This document shows, piece after piece, positions 2,491 through 51,073 of a stretch of DNA of 64,000 nt; the stretch's first letter is position 1; every line of letters begins with the position of its first letter. Source of the stretch: Ancylonema sp. (taxonomy: Eukaryota); the NCBI GenBank assembly GCA_050230475.1, contig JBFLGF010000009.1, positions 1 to 64,000 on the forward strand. The letters are read 5' to 3'. Under the pieces are notes generated by a model. It was not told where the DNA came from. It did not search any database and was given only the letters and a program-made list of their open reading frames with translations. The translations under genes were made by a program, and so were the position numbers.

Positions 2491-2972
2491 TGAAGCTAGG
2501 GCAATCACTAATAGCCTTAGAGCGAGGTTCGTACTAGTGAGTAGGCTTTGTTTATAAAGAGACTTCACTTAGCTCGTTATAACGCGAACTCGTTATAACG
2601 CGAACGGATACTCATCATTTGTTATACATGAAATACAGTTATTGCATTGACCGAGTGCATTGCTAGGTTGACTAGCGCGAGCTTTCGTATCTTTCATATG
2701 ACATGGAGAAGTTGGGTAGTTGTATCACATGACAGGGAGAAGTTGAGTTAGTTATTTGGCTAGGCCGCATTGTTTGTGCAACGTCCACTTCCGTTGATCT
2801 AGTTTTGATACTAGTATGCACTTCAGTCACAATTAAGCTAATTCATATTGGTGCAATAAACTTGTCATCGCGTTTTGTGCCATGTGTGTTGTGATGGTTG
2901 TATTTATGCAACGAGGAATTGAATCTTCTCTAGAAAAGTATTTCGCAGTCCAGTATGGCTGACGGAATTTCA
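2491..2972 (+). repeat. 5' LTR (TGAA...TTCA)
   Basis: Direct repeat of 7534-7994 and immediately followed by the PBS. Confidence 0.93.
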
Positions 2973-7500: not shown

Positions 7501-7533
7501 TTAGCTAAGGTCATTAGTGCTTGCGAGGGGGAT

Positions 7534-7994
7534 TGAAGCTAGGGCAATCACTAATAGCCTTAGAGCGAGGTTCGTACTAGTGAATAGGCTTTGTTTATAA
7601 AGAGACTTCACTTAGCTCGTTATAACGCGAACGGATACTCATCATTTGTTATACATGAAATATAGTAATTTCATTGACTGAGTGCATTGCTAGGTTGACT
7701 AGCGCGAGCTTTCGTATCTTTCACATGAGCTTTCGTATCTTTCATATGACATGGAGAAGTTGGGTAGTTACATGACAGGGAGAAGTTGAGTTAGTTATTT
7801 GGCTAGGCCGCATTGTTTGTGCAACGTCCACTTCCGTTGATCTAGTTTTGATACTAGTATGCACTTCAGTCACAATTAAGCTAATTCATATTGGTGCAAT
7901 AAACTTGTCATCGCGTTTTGTGCCATGTGTGTTGTGATGGTTGTATTTATGCAACGAGGAATCGAGGAATTCTAGAAAAGTATTTCGCAGTCCA
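7534..7994 (+). repeat. 3' LTR
   Basis: Follows the PPT and matches the 5' LTR apart from a few SNPs and indels. Confidence 0.92.
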
Positions 7995-13566: not shown

Positions 13567-16500
13567 AAAATGTACATATATATGTCTACGTATGTATATA
13601 TATATATGTATATATATATATAAATATATATATACATATGTATACATATGTATATACATATGTATGTATAATATATGTATATATGTATATATGTATATAT
13701 ACATATGTATATATGTATATATATATGTATATATACATACATACATATATACATATACATATATATATATATGTGTACATACATATATTTTATTTTTTTT
13801 TAAATTCGTTTTTTGGCGCAGGTTGGTAACACTCCCCTGATTCGACTCACGCAAGCCTCTGAGGAGACGGGATGCGAAATCTACGGCAAGGTGAATGCAA
13901 ACATGCCCCACCTCCATTACAAGACATGTAGTCACTGCTTGTTTCTCATAGTCATTTTTTCGCTCCTGTGAAGAAAGTGAAGGCAGCAGTTTGACATATG
14001 ATGTGTTTGCATGCAATTATGATGGAAGGTGGCATTTGAATTCAATCATTACTTCACTGATATAGGCCAAATAAATTTGGTATCCTTTTGATCCAGTATT
14101 CATAGTTGAGCTGGATTTTATAAAATCCAGCTCGACTGAATTCAGCTGTTGTTGAAAATTCCAAGAGACAAAACTTTTCGAGATATCCACAAACAAAAAA
14201 GTTGAAAATGTAATAAAAATGTATCCCAAGTCTGGGCAGTACAGCCTTTTTGAACACCCTCTTAGAGTAAATTAAACATTTATGGACATTAATAAATAAT
14301 GCAAAGTGGATTGGATCCAGTTTTTTGGGTTGATGTTCAGCAAGGAATACAGCAGAGATTGAGCAGAGTTTGAAGTGAATGGGGAGAACGGCACAAATGT
14401 TAGCTCCTGTCTGTACATGTGATTCGGTTCATATACATATTGCGTGTATGTCGACATTTGGATGCACACAGTATATGTACGTATGTAGGAATGCATATGC
14501 CAACCCATTTTTTCAAAGAATCCATAAACACATACACAGGTACAACTTTATGTGCGGGTCCATACGTTCAGGCCATATCTTCGCATCATGCGCGAGTGTA
14601 TATCTTTGGATTTAGCGTTTTCGTTGCCTGACATATACCAGATGATGTGTGAAATTTTTAATCTAGAGCGGTATCAACATCGCTCACTTTCATTCCTTCT
14701 CTCTCCCTCTATTGCCAAATGTGAACAAGTGGGGTGAGAGGAGCAGGAAGGGGTGAAGTAGTCGCCATTTTTTTATTTTTTTTCCCCGTCTGTTCAGGCC
14801 GAGTTTATGAACCCGGGTGGATCCGTGAAAGATCGAGCAGCTCTCTACATCATCAAGGTCCCACACAACACCCATACCCATACCCTATACCCTATACCCT
14901 ATACTCATATTAATACCCGTATACTTTTCTGGTCTTGAGTATAGAAACGCTATCCTCCTCCTCCTCCTCCTCCTCCTCCTCCTCCCAGGAGAAACGAACA
15001 GAGTGGGGGGAGACAGTCACCACTGCTCCCACTGTTTGCTGACATCAGCAGATTTGTTTTGTGTGCAGGATGCGGAGGAGAGGGGGGTCTTGAAGCCGGG
15101 GGGCGTGATCGTGGAGGGGACAGCTGGCAACACAGGGATCGGCCTCAGCCTCCTGGCCAACGCCATGGGCTACAAGACTGTCATCGTCATCCCAAGCACC
15201 CAGAGCCAGGAGAAGAAGGACATGCTCAGGATCGCAGGGGCCGCGCTGGTGGAGGTGGGTGCCAGGCGGCAGGTGGCAGAAATGTGAGAGGGACCGCTGA
15301 CCTCTCTGTTGTTTTCTCCTGGTCAGGTGCCCGCGGTGCCGTACAAGAACCCCAACAACTACGTCCGGTACTCTGGGCGGCTGGCGGAACAGATTGCCAA
15401 GGTGGGGGGCGGCGGACGCGGCAGTTTTCGTGATCGATAGAAGTGACGCACTGCTGTGTTCAGGGTTTTAGGGTTTTAGGGGTGTTTGAGAGAGATTGGG
15501 GTTGGGGTTGGGGTTGGTGGCAGACAAATCCGAACGGAGCTCTTTGGAGCAACCAGGTCCGACCCTCCCCCCTCCAACTCCACCTCAGCTGAGGATGGGA
15601 GTAAACTCTGATACCTGGGATGGGGGATGGGGGATGGGGCGGGTGGACCAGTTTGACAACCTGGCGAATCGGCGCGCCCATTATGAAACCACGGGTACGT
15701 GTTTTTCTTAGCTGTATACGATGCCGCTGTTGTAACCAACCAATCCGCCTATTCGTTATTTTTAGGTCCTGAGATCTGGGCCCAGACTGTTGGCAAAGTG
15801 GACGGATTCATTTGTGCCATCGGGACAGGTGGCACGCTGGCAGGGGTCGGGAAGGTGAGTCAATCTCTGGGGAGGGGGTGGGAGGGGGGGTGGCGGTTTT
15901 CAGAGGAGAGGGGTTCTATGTGCGTGTGCAGTTCTTGAAGGAGCAGAACCCAGCCGTGCGGATCGGGATGGTGGACCCCATGGGGGCCGCCATGCACGCC
16001 TACTACGACCGAGGGGTGCTGGAATCAAAAGGAAACTCAGTAAACGCTCCACATAACTTTTCACGTTTCACCTTTTTTTTTTTTTTTCAATATATATGTA
16101 TTATTCTTCTTTCTCTCGACATTATGAATGAAAATGAAACGATAATAACGACTGTCTTCTTCTGTCCCAATACAACTTGCGTACGGCATTGTAAGATTAT
16201 GATCCGGAATGGGGCGCTGAGCAGTGGCGGCGTGGGGGTGTGTGGGCAGATCTCGGAGGGCATCGGGCAGGGGCGCATCACAGGGAACCTGGAGGGGTGG
16301 GGGTTGCCGGTTCGGGAGGGGGGCGTGGTTGACTTCTGGTGTCAGGTGCGAGGGTGGGGGACTGGGGGACTGGGGGACTGGGGGATTAGCGATGCTGATG
16401 TCATGGGGGACAGTGATGATGCCATCATGAGTGGGAAAGGGGGTGGTGATGAGTGGGGAGGAGTGTGTTGGGGGGTGATTACTCCACTTACTCTGCTCTT

Positions 16501-17166
16501 CTACTGGTCCGTCACACTCTAAATTTGCCATCCTGCCATTCCGCCACTCCGCCACTCCGCCACTCCGCCACTCCGCCATTCTGCCATTCTGCCATTCTGC
16601 CATTCTGCAAGTCTTACATTTTGCCTTGTGCTGACGTGGAGAGGTTCAGGCCAGTGATGAGGAGGCTCTGCCCATCATTTACCAAATGCTGCGGCAAGAG
16701 GGGCTGTGCATGGGTCCCTCTACCGGAATCAATGTGGCAGGTGGGACCCTATAAACCCTAAACCTTAAACCCTAAACTCCTCTAGACTGATGTGGGATGG
16801 TGTGGTGGGGCTGGTCGATAGAAATAAATAAGGAGTTGAGGGAGTGATGCATGAGTTGTATCATGTTTGGAGTGTGAAGTATGTTCAGGATCGTGTGTTT
16901 TGATGGCCTACTTATTGACGGCATGCCCCACCAACCTTGCCCTCGTTTTGATGTTCTCACATTCGGCAGGCGCCATAAAACTGGCCAAGGAGTTGGGTCC
17001 CGGGCACACAATTGTCACAATTTTGTGCGATTTAGGCACCAAGTACCAAGGGAAGATCTTCAACGTCGAGTATTTGAAAGCCAATAATTTGCCGTTTCCT
17101 CCTTGGCTAGAGGAGGGGCATGATGAGGTCGAAGTGCCCCAAGTTTTCGAGCAGGTCGAGACTTAG
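12038..17166 (+). CDS. PLP-dependent cysteine synthase (O-acetylserine sulfhydrylase family). Exons 12038-12115, 13822-13890, 14798-14857, 15069-15254, 15327-15401, 15524-15556, 15652-15694, 15766-15854, 15932-16039, 16250-16345, 16650-16740, 16970-17166; an upstream transit-peptide exon is possible
   Basis: Motifs [24 protein letters not shown] (PLP lysine), [35 protein letters not shown] and TILCDLG. All junctions are GT-AG and in phase. Confidence 0.95.
12602..13790. repeat. ~1.2-kb degenerate (TA)n/TATG/TACA microsatellite inside cysteine synthase intron
   Basis: Directly visible and accounts for the spurious YI-rich ORFs. Confidence 0.97.
16532..16608. repeat. 8-mer repeat (CCGCCACT / CTGCCATT)n in intron
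   Basis: Directly visible. Confidence 0.9.
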
Positions 17167-17398: not shown

Positions 17399-18644
17399 TG
17401 GAATCACTTGTCAAAGTGCAGCCTTTGTTTTGGAAGTGGTTGATACGTCAAGTCTCTTGTGAGAGCTTGGAGCAGCTGGAATTCATGAAGAATCTAATTG
17501 CCTTGACTTGACTTGACTTGTCTAGCTGCATTGTAGAACAAATCCGAGTTCAAAAAAAAATAGACTTGCATCGGGTTCGGTTTCATTTTACTATGCTTGG
17601 CGATGTGGCGGAAATTATGTCTTGGAATTCCACTAAGCGGTCACATTAAGAATACCTTCCATCGTTTCTTTATATTGGATGAACGAAACATTTTTGCTGT
17701 CTCAATCATTTCTACTCAAAGTCTCAATGCGGATGTGTTGACCTAACCCTAAAAAACAAATAGCAAGTACCGATGGTGTGCCAATTTTACTCACTTGAGT
17801 GCAAATATCTATCTGAAAATTTCGGGGATTGGCCTGAGAAATGGAGTGTTGCACGATTCTCAACAAATAGGAAGCGGATGCATGTTTCCTTTAACACACC
17901 ACGGACACAAAATGAGACGAGCAATGGTGCTATATTTTTTATTTTATTCAATAGCGACGAACCAGTGGTATGCATCGTGTACGACGGGACCTCCATGTGA
18001 ATTGAAGAGATGAAGTTTTAAAAAACCAAAAAAATGCCAAAAATCAAATGCAAAGCAAAATGTACGGGAAAACGTAACATCGTTATGTTCTCCTGTTCAC
18101 TCGGGTGTTGTAATAGCGGGTGTTAGAAGAGAACGACAAACTCAAAAAGCGAGGTGCTGTAGCGGCCCTGAAATAAATAATTAATTGGGGGGGGGGGGGG
18201 GCGGCGTTACATTGATTTTTATAAATCGTAGTTTCGATGGTTTTCGACGGTGTCGGTGGTGGTTCGGGGGAGGGGATGGGGGGTGGGGGGGACGATTTCA
18301 TTCAAATGCGTTGCAAAAATTGGGAGGGTTAATCACGGCCGCTACGGTATGCGTGAGTCGCTTCGCTCGTAGCCAATGTACGGCCAGCCAGTATGTGCAC
18401 GCGGATAAAAATTGAATGACCGTACATAACGAAGCACCTCAGGCAACCAGCTGCGCATACTGCTGGCCTCCAGGTGCGGCAGGGGATACTCCTACTTCCG
18501 ACAGGCATATCGGACTTCCAGTGCATCTTGGAGAGCGTGATCAATCCACTGTGTTGATCGTAACTGCACGGTTTTTTGCGAGATCAGCAGACTGAACAGG
18601 CTTTCCATCACAGCTGCCACCAATCTTGATACTTTGAGGCAGAG

Positions 18645-19256
18645 ATGGCACGACGTGGCGTCGCCGTCTCCGGATTCCTTGCCCTGTATCGAACCTCCCG
18701 AAGTCTAAGCTCTGTTCTCGGCTTGAACTTTCGGAATTCTGACGCATATTTGAACCACAATCCGCGTTCCGGTCCTCCCACCTCCTCATCCGTACCTCAA
18801 GCCGGTCCAGCGGCTGCTTACCACACAGATCCGCACATGCTTGGCTCTCAAGCCACTGTCCTGGCCTTGCATCGAGTCTCGGAGATTTTTCTTGGCGGAG
18901 GATGCCTTCCTCCGATTGGCTCTGGGTTCCCCACTGCAACGACCGGCAATTTCGGTGTAGCTTCTCTTCTTTCGTCGGCACTATGCCAGTCCGTACGAGG
19001 AACTGCAGCGTCAGCTGGAGCGTCGACAGGAACAGATTCTGAGATATCAGATATACCTCCCGCGCCAGACACAGATGTCAGTGGGGAAGTTGGGGGTGGG
19101 CCTCAGGAGATTGATTCAGATGAGATAGAGGGGGAAGAGGCCGATGAGCCGATCATACGAAAGAATGAAAAAACTGGAGAGGTTGATGGCCCCAAGGGCC
19201 TGGAGCCAACACGATACGGGGACTGGGAAAAAGGAGGTCGCTGCTATGATTTCTAG
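18645..19256 (+). CDS. SDHAF4: Succinate dehydrogenase assembly factor 4 (Sdh8/DUF1674), mitochondrial, single exon
   Basis: C-terminal signature GEVDGPKGLEPTRYGDWEKGGRCYDF and an R/S-rich presequence-like N-terminus. Confidence 0.93.
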   Translation: MARRGVAVSGFLALYRTSRSLSSVLGLNFRNSDAYLNHNPRSGPPTSSSVPQAGPAAAYHTDPHMLGSQATVLALHRVSEIFLGGGCLPPIGSGFPTATTGNFGVASLLSSALCQSVRGTAASAGASTGTDSEISDIPPAPDTDVSGEVGGGPQEIDSDEIEGEEADEPIIRKNEKTGEVDGPKGLEPTRYGDWEKGGRCYDF

Positions 19257-20184
19257 TGTGGGCTAGGACAGTTCCATTTGGGACAGAGCGGTTCAAAGTC
19301 CTCAAAACGATTTCATTTCTAGTGTCGAATTCGGTAGTGTCTCATTAAGCGTTTCCGCGTGTTTTCAAAGAAACTGCTCTGGGAAGAGTTGAACATTTTG
19401 TTGACAATTTGTTGATAATTTGTTGAAATGTAAACGTGTGCATGCATGTCAATTTTACTAGGGTCTGCCTACCACACTGTAAGGGTAATCAGGGGTTGTG
19501 TGTGCCAAAAGCTGTGTCCTCGCCAAATAGATCATACATGACGGGAGCAATTAAGAAGTGACTCTTATGAAAGGAAATGGTCTGCATATGTACTTTTCAC
19601 CGACATTGCTATGTCTAGTATCTGAATGCGGACCTCGGGGCACGCAATTGTCGTAGAACGATTTGTCCCCCAGATAGAACAACCCAATTTGGTAACATAA
19701 TATACTCTTGCAAAGCAGGTTCTTGAATAATCTGAAATTCATCTTCTGGTTGCATCGGACCAGTCTCTCAACATTTCCTCAATTTAAAAGCCCAATCATT
19801 GGTACCAAAATCATATATGGCAAAGTGTGGCAAGTGGCAGTGTGACAGTTAGATGCAAGCCGCAGCTTATGTAACGAATTCAATTCCGACCATTTTGGTA
19901 CCCCTGTAAATTCGCCAAACACTTACTCTCGTCAGACTCATACAGAGAACCTGGAAGCCCTTCACAAACACAGGACTAACCAATGACCAGCCACGTTATA
20001 GTATTGCAGATACGACACTTCCTACACTTTGTACACTCACTAAGCACACCCTAGTTGCACCTCACTACAGGTGCCCCTATACGAAACTACCTTAGTGTGC
20101 CTATATCGTACTGCCCTCCTACCCTTACAACTCTTCACACACACACGGACGACATCACTGCCTCCCTCTAAGCCACTGGGTGCT

Positions 20185-22644
20185 TTAATTTCTATGCGTC
20201 ATTCTGCCACTTTCTGCCCCGGCAAACGGGTCGATCGTCACATTAATGAGAGCCGGTTTCTTTGCACCAAATGCTTCCCGCACTGCCTCCGCCAGCTGTC
20301 CAGGCGTGTCCACCGAATACCCCTTCCCACCAAACGCGTTCATGAGGAGGTTGTACTTGATCCCTGCCACAAAAGAGGTCGGAGCCGGATCCTTGTGGTA
20401 GGGTTCAGGAATATCCACCGCACCTCTACGGTCTCCACCGTAAACCCCTCCGTTGTTCATCACTATCACCACAACTGGAAGGTCGTACCGCACAATGGTC
20501 TGCAACAAAAAGGCGGAGAGAAGGGATGATCAAAAGTGCATGGACAATGGAATGTCAGAGTTTGGGTAACCTTCCAGCACGCCAGCCCTGTTTGTTGAAC
20601 ACAAGTCTGCCCTCATCTAAAATACATCTCAGAATTTCCTCACAAATTTCAATTTTCCCTCCCGATTCCCAGATTTTCCACTCGAGGATGGAACGATATC
20701 CGAAACTTTTCATACTCTCACACCACCTCCATCCCTTCCCCCCCCCCACCCCCCCCCGAAACCCCCAACCCCCAACCCCCAACCCCTCTGCTCTATCTCA
20801 CCTCCATCTCCATTCCGCTGAATCCAAACGCTGAGTCCCCCTCCACAGCCACCACCAGCCTCCCCGGCACCGAGACCGCCGCCCCAATGGCATACCCCAG
20901 CCCCACCCCCATGGTCCCCCACGTGCCCGCATCCAATCGCGTGCGAGGTTCAGTCTGCTCCAGCACCGCCCTCCCCACATCCATAGTGTTGGCGCCCTCA
21001 GAGACCAGGATGGGGGCAGGGGATCCGACGGCTGCGATTGCGTCCCGGATGATGCGGAGGGAGCAGTGGAAGTTGAGGGGTGTGACGTCAGCAGCGAGAG
21101 TGGAGGCCATCTTGGAGGTATTGATCACAGCTTGGGCCTGGGGGGGGGGAGGAGGGGTAGGGGGGGGATATAGAGATACAATGTTTTAATGTTTGCTGAT
21201 TGAGAAAGCATGAAGTGGAAGGAAATGGGACGATGGAAACCGTGCACCCAAAACGAGAAAAGGAAGCAACACACCTCCAAACAATAAATAAAAGTAAAAA
21301 ATGATGGAATACACAACACACTCTGTCACACACCAACAGCAGAGTACTGATACCGGCAAGGAACTCATCATACGCACTCCTCCAACTCCCACCCGCCCAT
21401 CCCCACCTTGATAGCTGCCCTCCAGGGATGCTCTTCCCCCAGCCTCACCCCAACCTCCTTCACCATCTCATTCAGCGCCTCCATCACCGCCTTTGCATCC
21501 CCCACCAGCCCCACCGCCGGTTTCCTCAACTCCACCTCCCCCCCATCCACCTCCACCAACACAAACTTCACCCCCTTCCCCCACTTCGGCTCCTCCCCGA
21601 AATGCAACATCCAGTTCAGTCTCGCCCCCACCACTAAGACCACATCCGCCTGCGATAGGGCCAGGGACCGCGCAGCCCCAGCCGCAAGTGGGTGGGTGTC
21701 TGGCAGAACCCCCTTACCCATGGGGGTGGCAACAAAGGGGATCCCTGTGCCCCCCACAAACTCGCTCAAAGCCGCCTCTGCTCGGGCGTAGCCCGCTCCC
21801 TTTCCAATCACCAGCAGAGGGCGCTGAGCTTCTTTCAGGAGGCAGAGGGCCTGGTGAAGCAGATAGGCTGGGGGAAGGGGGGAGGAGAGGGAGAAGGTGG
21901 CAGGGGAAGGAGGGTGGGCCCAGGAGGGGGAGAAGGCTTTCAGATTTGAGAGAAGGGAGTCCACTTCGGGGAGCGGGAGGGTTTGGTGGAGAAGGTCAGA
22001 GGGGAGGTCGATGTAGGACCCGCCTGGGCGTCCGGTTACTGAGGCGCGAATGGCGGTTTCTACCACATATGGGATCTCTGAAAGACTCTTGGCTTTGCCT
22101 GTGGAATGCAATAGGGGGGGGGGGGGCGGACATTAGGTGTGTGTGTCACCCTTGGGCCAAAGTTTTTATTCTCTCTCTTTCTCACTTTTTTTTTCCTTCT
22201 TTTTATCATCATTGAAATTCTAAGCAAAAGACATCCATTTGGGTGCAAAATGCAGGAGTTGCTCACCCCCATATTTCACAAAGGGCTGCACTGCTGCCAG
22301 CTGGTCGAGCTCCTGGAAGTCCCCCTTCCCAATGTCTGCCTGACAGCTGGACCCGGAAACCATGACCATGGGCCACGTGTTGATCATGGCGTTGCTCAGA
22401 CCCGCAAGGCCGTGGACGCACCCGGGACCCGACACGGTTAACAGCGCCCCGGGAACACCTGTCAGGTAACCGCACGCGCCCGCTGCGTACCCGGCCGCCT
22501 GCTCGTTGCGGAAGGCGATGAATCGGATACCCGCTTTCTGGGCGGCCGTGGCGACGTAGGTCACAGGGATGCCGACCACGCCGAACATGAAACGGATGCC
22601 GAGGCGGGCAAGGGCTTGGGCGGCGATCTCGTTGCCGTCGAGGA
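20185..22644 (-). CDS. ThDP-dependent oxalyl-CoA decarboxylase / 2-hydroxyacyl-CoA lyase (HACL/OXC) domain
   Basis: [30 protein letters not shown] (catalytic Glu), [61 protein letters not shown] (ThDP motif) and C-terminal [11 protein letters not shown]. Confidence 0.95.
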
Positions 22645-25600
22645 CTGGGGGAGATGGAGGGGGGGGGGGGAGGTGGGATGGGATGGGATGGGATGGTCAG
22701 GAGGGAAGGAGGTGGAATGGAGGGACTTGGGCAGCGGTGTGAATAGAGTTTGAAGTGATGTGTTTGTGATGCAGAGGGCATTTCGCGTCGAAAATGAGAG
22801 GCTAGAATGATGAGAGGAGGGCATCGACCACCATTATGTTTTGGAGAACATATGAGACAGCAAAAAGGAACAGCTTATATATGTATATCTGAATACATTA
22901 ATGTAAAGGACGATGGATGTTCTCCATTATTGCATGGTCCTCACAGCAGAACCACTTTCCGATGTAGGCGACCTCATGACTGATAAAACTTTGAGAAGGA
23001 ATTCAGGTCTGAAGGGTTACAAATAGAACCACATTCCTACCCCCCTCCTGTTCCCACTACCGCCTATTTCTATTTTTCACTCTTCTTACCACCCTCCCCC
23101 AGCCCCATCCCATTCTGTTGGGATGGGATTACATAAAACATTGAATAAGGTCTCCCACGTCCACCAACCCTACTTTCGATCATAGACTGAATGCTCTCCT
23201 AGCCCTACTCATAGCTCCAGAGGATGTCTCTGCAAGACCTTCAGCTTCAACAGCAGCAGGCAGGACCCCCCTCCTCCCCCCCCCCTCAGTTCAGGTGTGG
23301 GGCCCACCTGCTGTCGCAGCTGCTGCTGCTGGCGTTTCCACCTTCTCCTCCTTTTTGCCGAGGAAGACTTGTGCCACAAAGCGGCGCTGGATTTTGCCAG
23401 TGGCAGTTCGAGGCACCTCGTCAGTGAAGAAAATCCGTTTGGGGATCTTGAAGGGAGCCAACTTCTTCTTGAGGAAGGTCTGGATGTCTTCCTGTGAGGG
23501 GGTCTGCCCCTTGTGCAGCATCACTGCAGCATTCACCTGAACAGAAGGGGCATCACTCAACACAGGGGTGTTGAGTGATGTTGCACACGGACGTTCGGAT
23601 ATAAGGAATAGAGTGGGATGGAATGTGGCTACATTGGGTCGAGAACTGTTTTCGGGATTGTGCAATATTCAATTTCCAAGATAGCATGGAGGTCTGCCCA
23701 CAAAGGAAGAGAGGCAGAAAGGCAGAATGGCAGAATGGCAGAACAGAAGCAAGGCAGGAAGAAAGAAGGGCAGGGCGGTAACGAAGAGAGGCAGAGAGGC
23801 AGAGAGGCAGAGAGGCAGAGAGGCAGAGAGGCAGAGAGGCAGAGAGGCAGAGAGGCAGAGAGGCAGAGAGGCAGAGAGGCAGAGAGGCAGAGAGGCAGAG
23901 AGGCAGAGAGGCAGAGAGGCAGAGAGGCAGAGAGGCAGAGAGGCAGAGAGGCAGAGAGGCAGAGAGGCAGAGAGGCAGAGAGGCAAGAAGGTAGAAAGGG
24001 AGGAAGGCAGAAGGGCAGAAGGGCAGAATGGCAGAATGGCAGAAAGGCAGAACGGCAGACGGGGAGGAAGGCAGAAAGGCTGTACCTCCTCCCCATAGAG
24101 GTCAACTGGCGCCCCAACGGCGACGGCCTCTGCCACGGCCGGATGAGCCAACAGCGCGGCATCGACTTCCATGGGAGAAATCTTCTCCCCCCCCCTGTTA
24201 ATCAGCTCCTTGATTCGCCCCACCAGCTCCAAGTACCCATCCTCATCCACCTTGCCTTGGTCCCCCGTGTGGAAGTAGTCGAACGTGAAACAGGCTTCGT
24301 TGGCCGCAGGATTGTTTTTGTAGCCCTTGGTCACATTCGGTCCCGTGAGACACACCTCCCCCACCTGTCCAGGAGGAAGCTTCCTCCCCTCCCCATCCAG
24401 AATCGCCAGGTCTACCCCCGTCGGTTTCCCCACAGTCCCCGGTTTATGCAGGCCCTCAGAGGGGAGGGGGTTGGCGCACATCTGGTGAGCTGCTTCTGTC
24501 ATAGCATACGCTTCCAGCACTGGAGCCCTGAAAGCCTCCTCCAATCCGGCGAGGACAGCTGGCGCCAGACTGGCACTGCAACTGCGGATGAAGCGGAGAA
24601 GGGGGACGTCCTCCGGCTGCTGCTTGTGCCTGGCCAGCAGAATCTGATGCATGGTGGGGACTGCGGTGTACCACGTGGCGCCTCCCTCCCGGATATCCTT
24701 CCAGAAGGTGGAAGCACTGAACCGACCGCCAGCTGGCAGCAGGGCAGTGCCTCCCGCTGCCAAAGTGGACAGCAGGGCAGCCATGAGTCCGTGTACGTGA
24801 AACAGAGGCATGACCACCAGGCTCTTGTCTCCCGCGCCCACATGGTAGCACTTGATGATGTTGCCGATGCTGGCCGCGAGGTTGGTGTGCGTCAGAGGCA
24901 CGCCTTTGGGTCGGGAAGTGGTCCCCGACGTATGCAGAAACAGAGCCTCGTCATCCCCTTCAGGACGATCGCCGGCTCCCCGCCCCCCCCCCACCACTGG
25001 AGCCAGAAGAAGGCGAGCGTCGGGTGTGAGCTTCACTCCAGAGTCAGAGGTGGTGAGCGGGTGGATGAGGGCGACAGGGAGGTTCAGGGAGGCAGCTGCA
25101 GCCTGAGCGGGCGCTGAAGGCTTGCCAGCTGGCAGCAGGAGGAGTTTGGAGGCAGCGTCCTCCATGTAGAAACGGAACTCATCCTCGGTGTAGGCTGCGT
25201 TGAGAGGGGCTGCTACGCAACGGATGCGGGTAACCGCTAGGAAGGCCACCACAAACTGGAGGGAGGGTGGGAGGTAGGGTAAGCACGTCAGGTGTGGAAA
25301 GCAGGAGAGGTAGGATGTTTGGAGGAGGGGTAGGCGGTTCAGAAACGGGGTGCATGGTTTGGAGTATGAACGCCCGAAGAGAATCAGGTGGATAAAATTG
25401 GCGAAAGGGAATACGAGTGCTTCTTTTGGCCTGACGGAAAACAAATACCTCAAGTGTGTTAGGAAAGGCGAGGGACACTAGGTCTCCTGGCTTGACACCT
25501 GTCCTCCTCAGCTCTTGTCCCAGGCGCTCCACGGCCACCTGACACCCCGGGAATAATTTAAATGCCATGTGGATGATGTTATGCAGAAACATCGAAACAA

Positions 25601-26047
25601 TCGTGAGGAGAAAGGATGGGAATTCGTCGGATCGACGTGAGGCGTTATACAAGTGAAGGACATGCAGATGACCAGATGCAGCTCGCAGGATCCAAGCGAA
25701 ACAGAAGACAAGACCGGTGCAGTTCCAGCCAGCTGACAGACAACCGGTGTTCTAAACAAATATTTTTACTTGTTGTTTTGTACTATGAATCAGGTAAATT
25801 CATGACAATAAAAAGGCGGTGGAATATCTGCAGCCACTGTGACAGGAAGATAATGAGTTTCGCTGGAATCAGACAGATGCTAATTTGAGAAATAAAAATT
25901 TTGAATTTGTACCTTCAATTGCGCGTGTGATATTGTGGCCCCGCCGTCCATCACTGCCATAGCAGCTTTGTCTCCATGATCTGCAGCACATTTATCCAAT
26001 ATGTCTGCCAGTGTGGGGTAACCTGCATTATTGTCGCTCTTGGCCAT
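20185..26047 (-). CDS. Predicted fused oxalate-CoA ligase + oxalyl-CoA decarboxylase (~1114 aa). Exons 26047-25913, 25538-25449, 25255-24086, 23536-23308, 22644-22267, 22098-21407, 21137-20802, 20499-20185
   Basis: The eight exons sum to 3345 nt in one frame. The phase-1 donor GCAG|GTGGGC at 23308/23307 matches the phase-1 acceptor CCCCAG|TC at 22645/22644. The first decarboxylase exon has no start codon ahead of its conserved N-terminus. Confidence 0.75.
23291..26047 (-). CDS. AAE3: Oxalate--CoA ligase (AAE3/Pcs60-like acyl-activating enzyme) domain
   Basis: [80 protein letters not shown] and [11 protein letters not shown]. Confidence 0.93.
23788..23985. repeat. (GGCAGAGA)n 8-mer array with degenerate GGCAGAAT flanks, in AAE3 intron
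   Basis: Directly visible and accounts for the spurious QRGREAER and LSASLPLC ORFs. Confidence 0.95.
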
Positions 26048-26831
26048 TGTCGCTATATTGCAAGCGTATTATTTAAGATTCTGTAGCCAGACGTTCAGCA
26101 CAAAATTGTGCGAAGGGAGAATTTCCTATGCATCCTCCTCTAACAAAACAAGTATTGCAGAGAATCTGTAGCGACGATGGATTGCACAGCCCTTCCTATT
26201 TATTCAGGAGCCTGCGCTGGTGGTGTGCGAGAAGCAACACCAACCCAAACACGGACGCATGCGGTTCCCTTCGCGAGAATGGGAGAGGGTACAGCTTGGC
26301 ATCGCGCAATCCACCGGCTTTGCCAGCAATACTACTCGCTGCACTCCATTTGTCGCTTCAGTCTACAGTCAGCATGGAAGCTGAGTCGGTGCTTGTCGGT
26401 GGCCTGGGTATCCATTCACGTTGCCCAAGGGCCATAATTGAATGTCAATCGGAGAATTTTGCAAGCGGTACCCGCGCTCATAAATATGGCTATGTTCAGC
26501 GCATGTACCAATGCATGGCGCATTATGGTCTGAGACCCGCATATCAAACACCGTGGCGCCGCGGACCCCAGAGCCAATTATGACACGTGGACTGCTTGAA
26601 TTACCGAATATAAACACCGTATCCACAAAAGCTGGAGGACGGGTTCAGACGTAGCCCATTTCGGAGCTCATTTTGGCAATTTTATGAAAAAATATTGACT
26701 TTACTGCTGACAGTATCTACGTGGCACGTGTTCACCGTTGAGACAGCAGGAGATGTCAGTGATGAGCACGGGCACAAATTGAATGCTACATTGTTGGGAT
26801 TTGTTGGCTACACTACATTTCTAGTTTCTTG

Positions 26832-27583
26832 CATGCCAATCGCGAATATTTACCGTGCCATGTCAGCTTCGATTGAAAATTTGCAGCCGAACCTCAAACG
26901 ACGGTAATCTCGACACTCTCCTTTTCTCGTCACTGAAATCACGGTAAACACGGCACCCTGCCGCTGACCTACTAGTTACCGTGAGCAATACGGCTTCGTC
27001 TGTTAAATTTTGGCACGTGTTGACGATCCAAATTCCTTTTTCTTGTTTCGCTGATCTGGTATTCGTTGGTCAATTCATCGTAATTGGAGCTGCACTATTG
27101 GGATGCGAGTTCTCCGTTTGAATCTTTTGTCCGAATTTCTCCGTTTCCGTTAACATGCCATCTATACATCTGCCACTTTCATCACTATATTGTCTGGTCT
27201 TCGTGGTTGAGATCGTAGCACGTAGCACAAATATGCATGGCGTATTAATAAATATATACAATTTTTTTGAGTAATTCCAATGTCATGACACCACCACTTC
27301 CTCCCTTCTTTTTATCCTGCCAGACCTGGCAAACCTCCCTAACCTCCCAGATATATAAATACATGTATGTGTATTTTGAGGTTTATCTCAATACAATCAT
27401 CCCAGTATCATATCGTTCTCTGGTCAGTGTCAACAAAGTTCGCTCTTCATCTGCCATTTTCATCATTATGGTGTCTGGTTATTTGGGGTCGTGGGAATAT
27501 GCAAATATACAAATACATACAAATACATACAAATACTTACAAATAAATACATACATACATACATACATACATACATACATACA

Positions 27584-27616
<33 letters not shown>

Positions 27617-29356
27617 CTGAAGATGTTCTTTTTAAAAATAATCTCAATATCATGACACCACCACGTCATCCTTTCCAGACCTCGCTCTAGCCACCCCCCG
27701 GAAACAATGAGTATGCTACTTGCGATGATCTCTCTTGAGGCATTTCAAGCCCACACAATTAGCCGAGGCTATGCTATCACTACAACGAGTTCCAAAATAA
27801 ACAGGGTCATCTACAAATGTGATCGTGGGGTTATTGCTCGTAGCAATAGTAAAAATGATGACAAGACAAGAGTGTGACAGAAAACGCAAAGGTGAATTGG
27901 GGATGGATGCTCGATGATGTGAAGGATGCGGAAAGTATTGTATTTCGTGTGTGTCAAGTTTGCTATCTATGATGCTTCGTTCATAATTTATTGGTTGACC
28001 TCGCATACATTTGATTGGTATGTACACAATGTGAGTAGAGAAATAGAGAGCACATTCAGCGTATATTCTCGACACGCTAGTTTTCAGCTCCTAATTCAAT
28101 GCGAATAAAATTGATCATGGTGCCGCCTCAAAAATATGGTAGTCCATTGGCTCAACTCGTGTTGAAACTCTGTGAGGGAAATTTGAATTTTATTTTGACA
28201 TCTTTCACGACATCATTCACATAAATGCGCTTCACCTCATATGATGTGTGCATGATGACTGAATCTAAATTACAAACAAATATGTAAGCATCATTATCGT
28301 GGCCACGATGACAATCGAGTGTCAATCAACGACTTATTGTCGGAACGGTGGATTGAATGAAAACAGTGTCACTAGAGTTTACTACACTATGCTTTTTACT
28401 TCAGGCTTACATCATGTAGAGTGAAGGATATGATCATATGATCAACGATTTTGCACCCCAATTGACCTTAGACATAGAGGTATGCTGCACTCAACAACAA
28501 CTGCATACTTGAAACAATTCTGGAGGTGAAATTCGGTGATTATTTACGTATCATTCAAAACAAGATACTGCACTTTATTTCATGCCTTCATGATGAATGA
28601 GTACAAACTTACTTGCAAACATGTGAACTTTTTTTTTGTTGCCAAACAGCCTCACAAAATATCAGTCACCCACTGTACTTTCGTTGCAATGCTGGTAGTG
28701 AAATTTAACGTTGCGCATTTTCCATTCACATCATGCGAGAGCACTTTACTTCATGCGTATGTATCAAAGGAACATGAATTTAGAGGCAATGATCAACAAT
28801 TTGAAGAGCAAGTTTTAGGATAATAAACAAGGCAAATGGTATGATGCATATGCATCCCGCGCACACCTCGGGTACTCTGATGTACGTCTCCAATGCGTAC
28901 ATCTTACTACTTTGGTGTCGTAGATATATGCAACATCATGTCCTGAGGTCTCGACGACCCGGTAGCCAAAATGAGCAGAGCGGATCTGAAGCAGAGGTTC
29001 ACGGGATTTTGTTTTCACATACATTTTTTTTGCGATATAAAAGGCAGTCGCAAAGACAGGCGTGAGATCCGCGAGCAGCAGACATCCGAAGAAAAGGATG
29101 AAGAAGAGAAGGAGAAGAAGAGAAGAAGAGAAGAAGAGAAGAAGAGAAGCAAAAGCTGAGAAGCTGCGAGTTGTGGTTCCTGCTGCCGTTCGCGGGGATA
29201 CAACGATACGGCAGGGATGCCTTGACAAGATGCCTTGTTTACCGTGATTTCAGTGACGATAAAACGAGAGGGTGCCGTGATTAGCGTCGTTTGAGGTTCG
29301 GCGGCAAATTTTCAATCAAAGATGACATGGCACGGTAAATATTTGCGACTGGAGTG
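26832..29356. mobile_element. Putative non-autonomous TIR DNA transposon (~2.5 kb, ~125-bp imperfect TIRs 26832-26955 / 29231-29356)
   Basis: Left end CATGCCAATCGCGAATATTTACCGTGCCATGTCA.. aligns with the right-end reverse complement CACTCCAGTCGCAAATATTTACCGTGCCATGTCA.. The interior is AT-rich with no transposase ORF and no perfect TSD. Confidence 0.65.
27546..27612. repeat. (ATAC)n microsatellite
   Basis: Directly visible. Confidence 0.95.
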
Positions 29357-29562
29357 CTGCTCTAACAAAAAGTGGAGTGCTGCTAACAAATCCCTACATT
29401 GTTGGATGGGAGCCCACACGTGTGTTGGACTCTGAACTGCCCCACTTACATGGCCTGAGTCTTCAGATATGACATTTTAGCCAGATGGCGGGGTTGAGTT
29501 CTCGTAGAGGCGGACGCATGGCTTTCGGTTAAGGTTCCTCGTGGCAGGGGTGCCACGCAAAA

Positions 29563-31017
29563 ATGCCCACCGACTTTCGATACTCTGAGGCTGATTCCAT
29601 ATTAAGTGACGGACACTTTATGGATCTGCCCTCAGAGCCTTTCTCCTCGAACCTTCCTAGCAGGCTGTCTGTCGCTGGGAAATGCAGATGGCATCCTTTA
29701 CTTGGGCTCCTATTATACTCTATCCACCTTTGTCTCATTCTATCTTTCGTGTCCATCTCCTCGATCGGGCACCTGCCGGGTTTTACAGACCGCCACATTA
29801 TCCAATTCCTGGTAGGCACACATGTACTCCTTCTCTGTTTCACGGGTGTCCTTGAACGGTACCTCCATGGGTACCACAGACTTCAGCTCCAACGTGGGTA
29901 TCTCAAATTCTGCCACCGCATGGACCGCCTGGTTCCAATCCCCTTCGCAATGCTTTCCTATGGATCCTGTATAATCATTGGCGCTCTGCTATGGCACCCC
30001 GTCTGGCCCTGGGCCCTCACTTCCACCCTTATCGGCGAAGTCACTCTGGTCGGCAGCCTCGTAGTCTTCTACATTTGGTGTGCGTTCATACGACAGGCCT
30101 GGCATCCTGACGCCCAGGAGGAGCTTACTTCTGTCCTTAGATCCTCCGAATCTGGAGATTATCGTGACTACAGTGATGGAAAAGAACTGGTCGAGATGCA
30201 AGCTGCTGTTATCAGATTTCAACAAACGACCTTGGAACAGCTTTGTGTGGAGGTACGAAGGCAGCAGAGCCCTCCTGATTATAGGGATTAGTGAAACAGT
30301 GTGTAAAGCCTGGCGGAAGTGGGTCCCCAGTGAGTATTAGAACAGACAGAACGATTGGCATCATCCTTCTTAGCCAGTGTTGCACTATGCGGAGTGGTGC
30401 AGTCTGATGTCGGAGCTCTGAAACATTCAAATGTCCTGGTATTCTCTTGCGTCTGTCTGTGTGTGATATTTGGTATTGCCTCACAGTCCTGATATTGCAG
30501 GTGTGTCTTGCATATCCGTGGTGCTGGGCAGATTCTCAGCTTACAGGACCAACTGGGCAAGCATGCTCCAGTAGGCTCTGCAGAAGCAGTTCGCCAGGTT
30601 GAGGCAGCACAGCTTCTTGCGGTGAGGGAGCAGGAGCAACGAGCGGCACGCGGAGAGCAGGAGCAGTTACAAACTGAGCTTCAACGCGCTCTTGGCATGC
30701 TGGGAGAGGAGCAAGATGAGGCTGCCCGCATACGAAATATAAATCAGCAGGTAGTCGTTGGATCTTTTCAAACTGCATTAAGCTTTTCACTGGAAATGTG
30801 TGATGGTTGCAATCTCAGGGCTTGTTGCATCCTGAGTAAACAGTACGGATTGCTAGTCTTACGAAACACCCGGCGCTTGCAGTATATGGACGAGAATGCT
30901 CGCCTGCGACTGATGCTGGATGAATGGAGTGCTCGCTCTGCAAAGCTAGAGATTGCTTTAAATTTTCAAAATACGGAGAGGGGATGGTCTCCAATCTCAA
31001 CTTCTACAAGTGGATGA
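29563..31017 (+). CDS. TMEM192 / FRIGIDA-interacting-protein-1-like membrane and coiled-coil protein. Exons 29563-30252, 30532-30750, 30883-31017
   Basis: About 4 hydrophobic segments, then QAAVIRFQQ..E|ILSLQDQLGK and NQQ|YMDENARLRLMLDEWSARSAKLEIAL, resembling the plant FIP1 C-terminus. Confidence 0.75.
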
Positions 31018-31817
31018 AGAAGGCAGGACATCAGCATAGATCTGCTTTACTTGCATAAATGCCTTCACTGTATAGCTGGCACGTTTATGGACGTGAGTCG
31101 TGTATATATCCGGCATTTTTTTTTTGGCTTTTAGCATCAGGTTTGTTTATGGCTGTGATAGGTGAAAACCACGAATGTAAACCTGAGTTCTAGAATGAAA
31201 AAAATCTCCTTTCGAAATTGCATCAGTTTAAAAACTTATAGCCAGTCCTTGCCCTTAACATTTGTAGCATATGGCTTGTAGCCAAAGCTTAGCCCTCGAT
31301 AGTCTGCGTATTTGCATAGATGAGCCCAGACCAATTTGTCCAAACTTCTGTCTAATGCTTGTACTTGTACTTGTACTTCATGCATGTACCAAACTTTTTG
31401 TCCTTGAAGAAGTGTGCCCACTTCAGGTCCCCAGCATCATCATTGACAAAAACCATCGGATAACATTTTACTGTAGGGAATACACCGTAGCCAGCAGGTA
31501 ATGATAAACATAATTAATGAACATGTGTAACTTACAAAACACACTAGCTGTCAGTCTCTCAAGCCTCCACCATCTCGTCACATGAGAAATCCCGCAAAGC
31601 TACACAAATTCAGGCCACTATCATCAATCTCTGAAAACTTACAAATTGGTTCGGCTACATATAATTTCTCATCGTTTGAAACCTTTTGAGCAGACCAGCT
31701 ATGATTTAAAATTGTGCAGATTTGAACTCCACTCAACAGATCAACAGCAAGCAGAGAACCTATGAATCACGCCAGGTTGCTTATTCGATTTGCATTTGTA
31801 ATGTCAGTTCTCTTGAG

Positions 31818-32626
31818 CTACACGTCAGCTGAAGCCGGATGGATGTACCCAATCACCATCTGTGCGCTTTGTAAACGCTTGTTGATATCCTCATTCAAAG
31901 AATCAACTCCGTTCAAGAATTCGATCCCTTCCTCCCACTCTTCCATTTGTTGCTGATGTAGGTTCACAATTTTCTCCTCCCATTTGTTGTGGCACTCCAT
32001 GAAAGCAGCCTTCCCGGCATCCAGAAGATTTGAGACCTGCGTCATGTGAGATTACGAACAACGTATGATAAGGTAGCATTCATGAGGCAACACATTGCTT
32101 GACTTTTGTCCTGGCTGCCACATACTCGTGAAGTTCATTTTATTCTCACTTGAGATGTAAAGACATTTATTTGCTCCCGAAGATGCTGAACAGCAGCAAC
32201 TGTGCTAGCAGAGTAGGTCCCTTCATCCTCTTGCACATCCTGTCCATCATTTGTAACCTCGCCGCTCCCTTGCTCCTGAATTTCTTTTCCTGGACTACCT
32301 CCTGGTTCATCATATGCTAAGTCTTCCAGAACATCTTCTTCATTTTGAGACGGTTTCGCTCGCTTGGTGTTGCCCTCTGTACGCTCCCCAGACCGCTGCA
32401 AATGGCACAGACATTGTTGACCAGATTCAGTCCTGATCTGAACTCTACCCTGTTTTAAAATCATCCACTTCTCGTCCACATTTTTTCCTGATCCCTGTCT
32501 CCGTATGTAAATATTTGTGCTCTAGATTCGCGCAATGCAGAAGCCGAGCAAGATTACCTTCTCAGATGTCTCAGGCGGCGCAATCTGCTGAGCGTCTCGA
32601 GGACGCTTCTCACTGGTCTCCAGCAT
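31818..32626 (-). CDS. Small acidic coiled-coil plant protein resembling knotted1-binding protein 36 (KNB36). Exons 32626-32558, 32395-32150, 32036-31818
   Basis: In-phase GT-AG exons. FTSQ|VSNLLDAGKAAF..WEEKIVNLHQQQMEEWEE matches my recollection of a conserved plant family, so the family name is tentative. Confidence 0.6.
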
Positions 32627-33176
32627 GAGTTTCGCCTTAATCAAGAGAGCAGAGTAATCTAGGACTGTAAGAAATGGAATAGAAGTGAAGTAGAAACTGT
32701 GCAGAGAATACTAGAAGTGCAACCCGAGTTGAGTTTCGTTTCTTCAAACCGAGTATATATTTGCGCGCGCTTACGCGCTGTTAAACTGAGCTGGCATGGA
32801 AGTTTGCCACATCAGTATTCAGCGTCTCCAACTGAACAAAAAGGACAAAGTTATCTCACAATTTTGAGTTAGATTTATTTGAGAAGCATATATCATTGGC
32901 CTGAATTGAATTGGCCTGCTGGGACAGTTATGGGATTAGTCCAACCAATCGAGTTCTCGTTCGATGTCGATTTGCTTCAGTGACAAGATGTACCACGTCA
33001 GCTGCCACGCTGGTTATGGCAGAACCTTTCGTGACACGTGGTGAAACGTTGTAATCCGGGTAGCGGCCTCCGGGATTGTGCGGTATTCGTTTCTCTTCGT
33101 TCCTGCATCATTCTTTTCTCTGTTGGTAGCCCGCCAGCTCTGAGGACTCATCAGGCCTGCGAGCTGCGGGCCAGCT

Positions 33177-48079: not shown

Positions 48080-48186
48080 TCTGCTTTGGTATATGCAATG
48101 AACAAGATGTTCATATACTTGTATTTAGCTTTATTCATAGATAATAAATCGTCCTAGAAAGGATGATTTATGTGTGAATATTTTCG

Positions 48187-48312
48187 TGGATCGTGGATTG
48201 TGGATTATGGATCGTGGATCGTGGATCCTAGATCGTGGATCCTGGATCGTGGATCCTGGATCGTGGATCGTGGATCGTGGATCGTGGATCGTGGATCGCG
48301 GATCGCGGATCG
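48187..48312. repeat. (GGATCGT)n 7-mer array (second copy 51607-51726)
   Basis: Directly visible, with copy 2 one unit shorter. Confidence 0.93.
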
Positions 48313-50633: not shown

Positions 50634-50840
50634 ATGGCCACCAGAAGTCAGACCTTGAAGACCCCGACCAAACTGAGTCCAATTGAGAGCCCAGCTCGGT
50701 CTCTCAAAACTCCAGTCCCGGTTCACAAAAGTCCCAGGCCGCTGCGGAGCCCCGTGCTGAATCTAAACCAGCCAGCCAAGTCCCTGACACTGAGTCAGCA
50801 TATGGGCAATATTCTGGGCACCCTGCATCTCTTCATCGGG
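50634..50840 (+). pseudogene. Orphan diverged copy of sulfotransferase exon 1
   Basis: MATRSQTLKTPTKLSP..LHLFIG plus a GTACGC donor, cut off by the N junction at 50907. Confidence 0.6.
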
Positions 50841-51073
50841 GTACGCATTCTCCATTTCGTCAATTCTTCTTCCCGCGCCATTGCTTCTCAATAATCTGCG
50901 ATATTCNAAAACGAGAAACGAGAAACGAGAAACGAGTTTAGTGCAGGTTGGGGCGGTCCTCTTATGGTCGATGAATATGCGCATCTGGAGTCAGTACTGG
51001 AAAATCAGGGCATGGTTGGTTTCAATGGTGTTATAATGGTTAGCGTGTTCAAAATTTGAGCTGATGTGAGCAG

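What the first reader, a model, noticed from the sequence alone, without database searches (positions are those of the whole stretch)
20185..26047. Oxalate-CoA ligase and oxalyl-CoA decarboxylase appear fused into one ~1114-aa bifunctional enzyme
Seen: the two co-oriented coding regions are 663 bp apart. The ligase ends in a linker-like [16 protein letters not shown] followed by G|GTGGGC, a phase-1 donor like others in this window (GTGGGT, GTGGGG, GTGGGA). The decarboxylase begins at a C-rich phase-1 acceptor (CCCCAG|TC CTC GAC GGC) with no in-frame start ahead of its conserved [10 protein letters not shown]. Splicing gives ..AATA-V-LDGNE.. in frame, 3345 nt in total. The spacer looks like neighbouring introns, with a G-run after the donor and a C-run before the acceptor. 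Known: AAE3 (oxalate to oxalyl-CoA) and ThDP oxalyl-CoA decarboxylase (to formyl-CoA + CO2) are consecutive steps of CoA-dependent oxalate catabolism and are separate genes in angiosperms. Inference: this is a Rosetta-stone fusion that could channel oxalyl-CoA, and it argues this HACL-family enzyme acts on oxalyl-CoA. I am not aware of a characterised example but cannot verify novelty.
Basis: partly seen in the sequence, partly recalled or inferred. Interest (0 to 1): 0.92.

Follow-up and report, generated by a model that had tools for sequence, protein, structure and literature searches.

The report
Ancient fused oxalate-degrading enzyme
This alga's DNA encodes two oxalate-breakdown enzymes, separate in flowering plants, as one spliced protein; the same fusion is found across algae, liverworts and peat moss, so it is likely the ancestral form that later split, and it is predicted to turn oxalate into formyl-CoA and CO2.

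Summary
Eight GT-AG exons on the minus strand (26047-20185) give one open frame of 1114 aa: an AAE3-type oxalate-CoA ligase, a short linker, and a plant-type oxalyl-CoA decarboxylase. The decarboxylase half has no usable start codon of its own. One RNA contig ends exactly at donor 23308 and continues with 15 letters, 12 matching exon 5; this is thin but direct support. The stronger support is comparative: 49 of 120 listed long homologues carry both domains, from liverworts, Sphagnum, streptophyte and chlorophyte algae, Galdieria and Chromera. Catalytic residues of both halves are intact. Stand-alone land-plant decarboxylases nest among fused ones (AU p=1e-4), so they likely arose by fission. 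A glaucophyte transcript has the reverse order, from another clade. Oxalyl-CoA activity of the plant enzyme is already published. A fixed channel has no support: the linker is variable and predicted disordered. Ten paper searches found no description of the fusion, and this scan had not noted it before. Verdict: real, widespread, apparently undescribed variant of a known pathway.

The parts
25913..26047 (-). Exon 1 (start ATG at 26047), ligase N-terminus
   Evidence: RNA contig ends at 25947 and 26086 in run X1 (loose-end table)
25449..25538 (-). Exon 2, ligase
   Evidence: joint to exon 3 seen in RNA (25255^25449, skip 193)
24086..25255 (-). Exon 3, AMP-binding core with P-loop and oxalate pocket (H228, V229, H230, C301, S302, A326, M327, H332)
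   Evidence: Pfam PF00501; best PDB hits 6qjz and 5ie0, E 1e-144; residues
23537..24085 (-). Intron 3 (549 nt) holding an 8-bp tandem array
   Evidence: same position as a Sphagnum intron
23308..23536 (-). Exon 4, AMP-binding_C with catalytic K513, and most of the Ala-rich linker
   Evidence: PF13193; RNA contig 23525-23308 with 0 differences ends exactly at the donor
22645..23307 (-). Intron 4, the 663-nt phase-1 linker intron joining ligase to decarboxylase
   Evidence: a phase-1 linker intron also in Sphagnum locus L001 9760-10589
22267..22644 (-). Exon 5, decarboxylase PYR domain with catalytic E589 and F651-Q652; no start codon
   Evidence: PF02776
21407..22098 (-). Exon 6, decarboxylase middle (R) domain
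   Evidence: PF00205
20802..21137 (-). Exon 7, PP domain with the GD of the ThDP/Mg motif (D999)
   Evidence: PF02775
20185..20499 (-). Exon 8, PP domain end with N1025/N1026, Y1030, S1107 and stop; no PTS1
   Evidence: PF02775; intron 7 position shared with Sphagnum
20003..20143 (-). Probable 3' UTR
   Evidence: RNA contig with 0 differences over 141 nt; contigs show no strand, so UTR status is inferred

Best explanation
One gene of eight exons encodes a 1114-aa chain joining an AAE3-type ligase to a plant-type oxalyl-CoA decarboxylase, predicted to convert oxalate to formyl-CoA plus CO2, likely in the cytosol, with the two halves likely tethered loosely rather than linked by a tunnel. Shown here: the open spliced frame, the domain content, intact catalytic residues, and the same architecture in dozens of species. 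Inferred from characterised orthologues: the ligase makes oxalyl-AMP and then oxalyl-CoA; the decarboxylase halves dimerise, with ThDP sites between subunits, and release CO2 and formyl-CoA. The tether would give 1:1 co-expression and proximity, keeping free oxalyl-CoA low. Inferred from trees: this fusion is the ancestral state of green plants (possibly shared with red algae), and the separate AAE3 and OXC genes of vascular plants arose by fission, with the linker intron as a plausible break point. The host is likely a conjugating green alga (Zygnematophyceae).
For: Open frame and GT-AG sites. No in-frame ATG reaches exon 5. RNA run X1 holds spliced transcripts of this organism or close kin: 13 joints on 24090-37500, including this gene's intron 2. 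Its contig over exon 4 (218 nt, 0 differences) stops at donor 23308; the 15 loose letters match the start of exon 5 at 12 of 15 (first 6 exact) and the intron at 5 of 15 (counted by hand). That 15-mer has 4 three-mismatch matches in the window, 1.35 expected, and one begins exactly at acceptor 22644. 49 of 120 listed long homologues carry both domain sets. P0001 and P0131 are complete transcriptome ORFs, and six more lie on 3.4-4.7 kb contigs that the ORF nearly or largely fills. All 8 AtAAE3 oxalate-pocket residues (PMC8905533 passage) are present; S302, H332 and K513 in 48 of 48 fused homologues. E589 in 48 of 48; Y1030 in 44 of 48 and S1107 in 45 of 48, the rest gaps. The decarboxylase half is 61-66% identical to 120 stand-alone decarboxylases, all named ones from land plants, and has the E/F/Q/Y set listed for AtOXC. 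Both halves group with the same zygnematophycean-type sequences. AU test rejects all fused sequences as one clade apart from stand-alone ones (p=1.1e-4). Three in-domain introns and a phase-1 linker intron are shared with Sphagnum.
Against: The direct junction evidence is one low-depth contig with 15 letters on the far side, 3 mismatched; the tool lists no joint there. The same run has a 151-nt contig at about 88% identity inside intron 4 (22902-23042), which could be unspliced or ligase-only RNA of a relative. Exons 5-8 have no near-identical RNA cover in this shallow run. Donor read-through gives a complete ligase ending 5 codons later. Three Sphagnum assemblies annotate the orthologous decarboxylase as stand-alone. 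No activity or localisation has been measured for any fused protein. Some red and green algal records are unfused (Pyropia, Porphyridium ligases; Haematococcus), and the base of the decarboxylase tree is unresolved, so a single green-plus-red origin is not shown. Trees used a hand-picked subset (27-68 rows); ferns, hornworts and Chara are thinly or not sampled.
Confidence: 0.88

Rival explanations
1. Two adjacent separate genes: a ligase that reads through the donor and stops 5 codons later, and a decarboxylase with an unseen ATG-bearing first exon inside the spacer.
For: The read-through ligase is complete. Vascular-plant decarboxylases stand alone with 1-38 residues before the conserved D. 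One 88% RNA contig lies in the spacer.
Against: No in-frame ATG reaches exon 5. The RNA contig stops at the donor and continues like exon 5. The nearest relatives of both halves are fused.
Confidence: 0.03
2. The locus makes the fusion plus a ligase-only isoform by intron-4 retention or intronic polyadenylation; in Sphagnum it could also make a decarboxylase-only protein from an intronic ATG, a half-way stage of fission.
For: Donor read-through gives a clean stop in the window and in 4 of 4 Sphagnum loci; an in-frame ATG lies 2 codons before the Sphagnum acceptor in 4 of 4. One Sphagnum record is fused and three are annotated from that ATG. Spacer contig in X1.
Against: Stops soon after donors are common by chance. 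The window has no such ATG and no AATAAA in the spacer. The Sphagnum difference may be annotation only. No transcript ends were seen.
Confidence: 0.2
3. The fusion is a true channelling machine with a fixed ligase-decarboxylase interface that hands oxalyl-CoA over without release.
For: The fusion is kept over very long time and appears in reverse order in another clade. AAE3 can form a metabolon with another partner in grass pea (PMC9935904 passages). Oxalyl-CoA accumulates when OXC is reduced.
Against: Linker 25-81 aa and unconserved; pLDDT below 50 at 521-531 and pTM 0.59 despite mean pLDDT 91. Vascular plants run the pathway with separate proteins. In M. extorquens the decarboxylase (98 per s) far outruns the ligase (1.3 per s; PMC7154664), so little intermediate would build up anyway.
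Confidence: 0.2
4. The fusion is real, but the second half works mainly as a 2-hydroxyacyl-CoA lyase (alpha-oxidation), as database names say.
For: F651-Q652 is the HACL-type pair. Many homologues are named 2-hydroxyacyl-CoA lyase. 15 of 49 fused proteins end in a canonical PTS1. The Marchantia protein misses the TIGR03254 cut-off (602 vs 739).
Against: AtOXC has the same F/Q pair and decarboxylates oxalyl-CoA. The Tyr and Ser tied to OXC turnover are kept. The partner has the oxalate-specific Ser and His. The window protein lacks a PTS1 and lies outside the HACL-like clade.
Confidence: 0.06

Closest known systems
Plant oxalyl-CoA synthetase AAE3/OCS (Arabidopsis, PDB 5ie0-5ie3; grass pea LsOCS, 6qjz; yeast Pcs60, 8aff)
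   Same: Best PDB hits of exon 3 (E 1e-144); all 8 oxalate-pocket residues kept.
   Different: Here it is the N-terminal half of a 1114-aa chain, not a ~515-aa stand-alone protein.
Plant oxalyl-CoA decarboxylase AtOXC (At5g17380) / maize OCD1
   Same: 61-66% identity to stand-alone orthologues, with the same E, F, Q, Y, S residues and H[KR]N end.
   Different: No start codon of its own; tethered to the ligase.
Bacterial OXC (O. formigenes 2c31, E. coli 2q27, M. extorquens)
   Same: ThDP fold, catalytic Glu, Tyr483 and Ser553 equivalents.
   Different: F/Q in place of Y120/E121; in O. formigenes and E. coli oxalyl-CoA is supplied by CoA-transferases (recalled; one search says so for frc), not a fused ligase.
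Database-only AAE3-OXC fusions (Marchantia paleacea, Calypogeia, Sphagnum fallax, Closterium, Coccomyxa, Chlorella, Chlamydomonas spp., Galdieria, Chromera, Rhytidocystis)
   Same: Same domain order and colinear alignment, 42-66% identity.
   Different: Named hypothetical or 2-hydroxyacyl-CoA lyase; many chlorophyte ones end in a PTS1, streptophyte and Galdieria ones do not.
Bacterial oxalate-ligase-carrier-ThDP proteins (e.g. P0139, P0317)
   Same: AAE3-like ligase in one chain with a ThDP enzyme.
   Different: P0139 has a carrier domain between the halves; the ThDP halves of such proteins are only 26-32% identical to the window's.

Membership tests
AAE3 / oxalyl-CoA synthetase | Oxalate-specific Ser289 and His319 plus catalytic Lys500 and pocket residues | tested here: met
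   S302, H332, K513, V229-H230, C301, A326-M327
AAE3 / oxalyl-CoA synthetase | Groups with land-plant AAE3 in a tree | tested here: met
   15-row streptophyte clade with angiosperm ligases, SH-aLRT 97 (quick tree)
AAE3 / oxalyl-CoA synthetase | Oxalate-dependent oxalyl-CoA formation | not testable with these tools
   needs an assay
Plant oxalyl-CoA decarboxylase (AtOXC/OCD1 orthologues) | Catalytic Glu, GD...NN ThDP motif, Phe-Gln, Tyr, C-terminal Ser lid | tested here: met
   E589, D999, N1025/N1026, F651-Q652, Y1030, S1107
Plant oxalyl-CoA decarboxylase (AtOXC/OCD1 orthologues) | Orthology by tree | tested here: met
   17-row clade with land-plant sequences, 100/99; Arabidopsis itself was not a row
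Plant oxalyl-CoA decarboxylase (AtOXC/OCD1 orthologues) | Stand-alone ~570-aa protein with its own start | tested here: not met
   no in-frame ATG reaches exon 5
Bacterial OXC equivalog | NCBIfam cut-offs and the Y120/E121 pair | tested here: inconclusive
   Orthologues P0002 and P0001 pass PRK09259 (634, 620 vs 557) but not TIGR03254; the window protein itself was not scanned whole; Y/E is replaced by F/Q
Peroxisomal HACL1 (2-hydroxyacyl-CoA lyase) | PTS1 and membership of the HACL-like clade | tested here: not met
   ends in HRN; outside the H_ rows; those rows are unnamed and were labelled HACL-like by me from their C-termini
Substrate-channelling bifunctional enzymes | Fixed interface or tunnel, and kinetic sequestration of the intermediate | tested here: inconclusive
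Bacterial ligase-carrier-ThDP NRPS starter | Carrier (PP-binding) domain between the halves | tested here: not met
   only about 30 linker residues separate the domains

The most novel reading that the evidence does not exclude
An undescribed bifunctional oxalate-destroying enzyme is the ancestral state of green plants and red algae and hands oxalyl-CoA directly between its halves. Land plants split it at least twice at a conserved linker intron (vascular plants; mosses other than Sphagnum), Sphagnum is caught midway, and a second lineage fused the same two steps independently in reverse order.
Probability: 0.25. Interest if true: 0.78.

Novelty: new variant of a known kind. Interest (0 to 1): 0.56.

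Why it matters
It rewrites the origin of the plant CoA-dependent oxalate pathway: AAE3 and OXC appear to descend from one gene, which would give a clean, repeated case of gene fission with a visible intron-based route. Marchantia and Chlamydomonas relatives make it testable by knockout. It corrects database names (HACL or hypothetical). It also offers a natural single-gene oxalate-to-formyl-CoA catalyst, of possible use for low-oxalate crops and for ligase-decarboxylase C1 cascades that are now built from two enzymes (PMC7154664). Interest is tempered because both reactions are known and the architecture already sits in public databases.

Tried and rejected
No whole genome is held, so copy number and a second stand-alone copy could not be checked. 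The RNA run search gave one run at share 0.05; lack of cover on exons 5-8 is no evidence. Single-sequence AlphaFold of P0002 failed (pLDDT 37); the alignment-based model was used instead. Complex prediction of the two halves was not available, so there is no result. Folding intron 4 pairs the G-run with the C-run, but z = -0.41, not significant. The careful mixture-model tree did not finish (one search returned the quick tree). A single fission for all stand-alone land-plant decarboxylases is not rejected (p=0.056), so 'two fissions' rests on branch support only. Paper searches (judged from listings) found nothing on the fusion. PMC9090294 includes Chlamydomonas and Physcomitrium OXC in its tree and has 0 occurrences of 'fusion' or 'fused'. 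PMC5755239 lists the Chromera protein only as HPCL2. Yang 2018 (maize OCD1) and Shockey and Browse 2011 are not held and may mention algal or moss forms; no supplements were read. The first exon trial had two boundaries off by one base, corrected.

Full report
Observation. The region was read on the minus strand and a gene model was built by coordinates. Eight exons (26047-25913, 25538-25449, 25255-24086, 23536-23308, 22644-22267, 22098-21407, 21137-20802, 20499-20185) total 3345 nt and translate to 1114 aa, 116.8 kDa, with one terminal stop and seven GT-AG introns. Pfam places AMP-binding and AMP-binding_C in exons 3-4 and the three TPP_enzyme domains in exons 5-8 (exons 1-2 were not scanned). 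The 663-nt spacer has a phase-1 donor and a phase-1 acceptor. Of its 15 ATGs, 5 are in frame with exon 5 and all stop within 18 codons. Donor read-through ends 5 codons later, so the DNA alone also allows a stand-alone ligase. The G-run/C-run pattern matches introns 5-7 of this gene but not the RNA-confirmed introns of neighbours.

RNA evidence. Only one run was found, a poly(A) metatranscriptome labelled ice metagenome and kept as contigs (X1). On 24090-37500 it gives 20 laid contigs and 13 joints, 12 canonical, including intron 2 of this gene, so it holds spliced RNA of this organism or close kin. On 20000-23700, 4 contigs were laid. One covers 23525-23308 with 0 differences and stops exactly at the predicted donor. 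Its 15 further letters match the start of exon 5 at 12 of 15, the first 6 exactly, and the intron at 5 of 15 (counted by hand). Contig ends in this library often carry about 10 unmatched letters, which may explain the mismatches. The 15-mer has 4 three-mismatch matches in the window (1.35 expected), one starting exactly at the acceptor. A second contig matches the probable 3' UTR exactly. A third, about 88% alike, lies inside intron 4 and could be unspliced or ligase-only RNA of a relative. The fourth is a 36-nt match from another organism's homologue. The junction is thus supported by one short, imperfect contig end.

Comparative evidence. A search with exon 3 against proteins of 684-2000 aa listed 120 hits; 49 carry both ligase and TPP domains. 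They come from Marchantia paleacea, Calypogeia, Sphagnum fallax, Closterium, many Trebouxiophyceae and Chlorophyceae, Chloropicon, Ostreobium, Galdieria and Chromera, and from ids that I recall as Spirogloea, Mesotaenium and Chlorokybus. Seven more appear, including Rhytidocystis. The spliced model aligns through the junction in one HSP with all 48 ligase-first proteins. Two ligase-first proteins are complete transcriptome ORFs, and six lie on 3.4-4.7 kb contigs, so the fusion does not depend on gene prediction. P0086, a Gloeochaete (glaucophyte) transcript, has the halves in reverse order. The 120 best shorter relatives of the decarboxylase half are stand-alone proteins; the named ones are from angiosperms, gymnosperms, ferns, a lycophyte and Sphagnum balticum. 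The Klebsormidium 'stand-alone' record begins inside the ligase C-terminus and is a truncated fusion.

Residues. All eight oxalate-pocket residues of AtAAE3 (PMC8905533, passages) are present, and the oxalate-specific Ser and His and the catalytic Lys are invariant in 48 of 48 fused homologues. The decarboxylase half keeps the catalytic Glu, the ThDP motif, and the Tyr and Ser aligned to O. formigenes Y483 and S553. Equating these with the M. extorquens Tyr497/Ser568 that support formyl-CoA release (PMC7154664, passages) is my inference. Its Phe-Gln pair is HACL-like, but AtOXC has the same pair, is a cytosolic dimer and decarboxylates oxalyl-CoA (PMC8004701, passages); 120 of 120 stand-alone relatives share it. 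So the substrate inference is established biochemistry, not a new deduction. The window protein has no PTS1; 15 of 49 fused proteins, mostly chlorophyte-type plus Chromera and Gloeochaete, have a canonical one.

Mechanism. Inferred from orthologues: oxalate + ATP give oxalyl-AMP, then oxalyl-CoA; ThDP sites of the decarboxylase dimer release CO2 and formyl-CoA. The linker is 32 residues here (K513 to G545) and 25-81 in homologues, with no conservation. An AlphaFold model of the Marchantia orthologue on a 90-row alignment has mean pLDDT 91, pTM 0.59 and a low-confidence linker. This fits two rigid units on a flexible tether, giving fixed stoichiometry and proximity rather than a tunnel. True channelling is left at about 0.2.

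Evolution. Trees of the two halves (65 and 68 hand-picked rows, quick method; 38 rows; 27 rows, careful) roughly follow species relationships and place both window halves with zygnematophycean-type sequences. The ligase tree puts angiosperms outside bryophytes plus algae, so it is not fully species-like. Holding all ligase-first fusions together apart from stand-alone land-plant proteins is rejected (AU p=1.1e-4), which supports fission from a fused ancestor. Unnamed stand-alone decarboxylases (P0171, P0173) and ligase transcripts with a stop (L005, L006) are sister to fused Sphagnum (99/98 and 99). This suggests a second fission in mosses, though a single fission is not rejected (p=0.056). 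Placing Gloeochaete with the green/red set is rejected (p=8e-8), so the reversed fusion arose separately, if that transcript is genuine and not a contaminant. Sphagnum genomic loci share three in-domain intron positions with the window and also have a phase-1 intron in the linker; exact homology of that intron cannot be shown in an unalignable linker. In 4 of 4 Sphagnum loci, donor read-through stops at once and an in-frame ATG lies two codons before the acceptor; three Sphagnum assemblies annotate the decarboxylase from that ATG. This offers a simple route to fission, but it is untested.

Literature and verdict. Ten searches showed no paper on the fusion. I saw passages of PMC8004701, PMC10816874, PMC8905533, PMC7154664, PMC11271303, PMC5755239 and PMC9935904, and part 1 of 3 plus term searches of PMC9090294. 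Two relevant papers were not held, and subscription journals and supplements are unseen. The scan's notes hold only bacterial oxalate-ligase cases. The fusion is real, old and widespread, visible in databases under misleading names, and apparently undescribed: a new variant of a known pathway, interest 0.56.

Noticed in passing
P0086 (Gloeochaete transcript): Decarboxylase-first, ligase-second fusion ending in a PTS1; both halves fall outside the green/red clades, so likely an independent fusion; one transcript only.
   Followed up: partly
L001 9760-10589 (Sphagnum locus): Linker intron with an immediate read-through stop and an in-frame ATG just before the acceptor; Sphagnum species are annotated either fused or split at this point.
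   Followed up: partly
P0127 (Klebsormidium nitens GAQ80211.1): Annotated as a stand-alone decarboxylase but starts inside the ligase C-terminal motif: a truncated fused gene model.
   Followed up: yes
P0012-P0069 C-termini: Many chlorophyte and the Chromera fusions end in PTS1-like tripeptides, while streptophyte and Galdieria ones do not: a possible peroxisome-to-cytosol shift of the pathway.
   Followed up: partly
P0162: A single metagenomic 993-aa protein fusing a CoA:oxalate CoA-transferase to a bacterial OXC, another fusion of an activating step to OXC.
   Followed up: no
P0008, P0009, P0013: Closterium records of 1606-1634 aa with an insertion of about 430 aa in the decarboxylase half, possibly annotation errors.
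   Followed up: no
window 2491-7994 and 1-1140: Decayed copia-type retrotransposon (gag, integrase, RT) between 89.5% direct repeats at 2491-2952 and 7534-7994; another gag fragment on the minus strand.
   Followed up: partly
window 39631-42636, 47488-53359, 55493-56544: Near-identical tandem duplications (99.6-99.9%), one next to the window's only N (50907); possibly assembly artefacts.
   Followed up: no
window 14829-17163 (+), 18630-19253 (+), 29533-31014 (+), 60602-62643 (-): Neighbouring genes: a PALP (cysteine-synthase-like) enzyme, DUF1674, a TMEM192-family protein with an RNA-confirmed intron, and violaxanthin de-epoxidase.
   Followed up: partly
window 33100-35800 (+): Gene with 7 RNA-confirmed introns; its translation recalls an AhpC/TSA-like redox protein (recalled, not tested).
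   Followed up: no
window 32037-32298 (-) and 28465-28867: Two RNA joints share one acceptor with different donors (alternative splicing or strain difference); one 401-nt joint has no canonical ends.
   Followed up: no
window 22645-23307 (-): The G-run near the donor and the C-run near the acceptor of intron 4 pair in the predicted fold and would bring the splice sites together; overall z = -0.41.
   Followed up: partly
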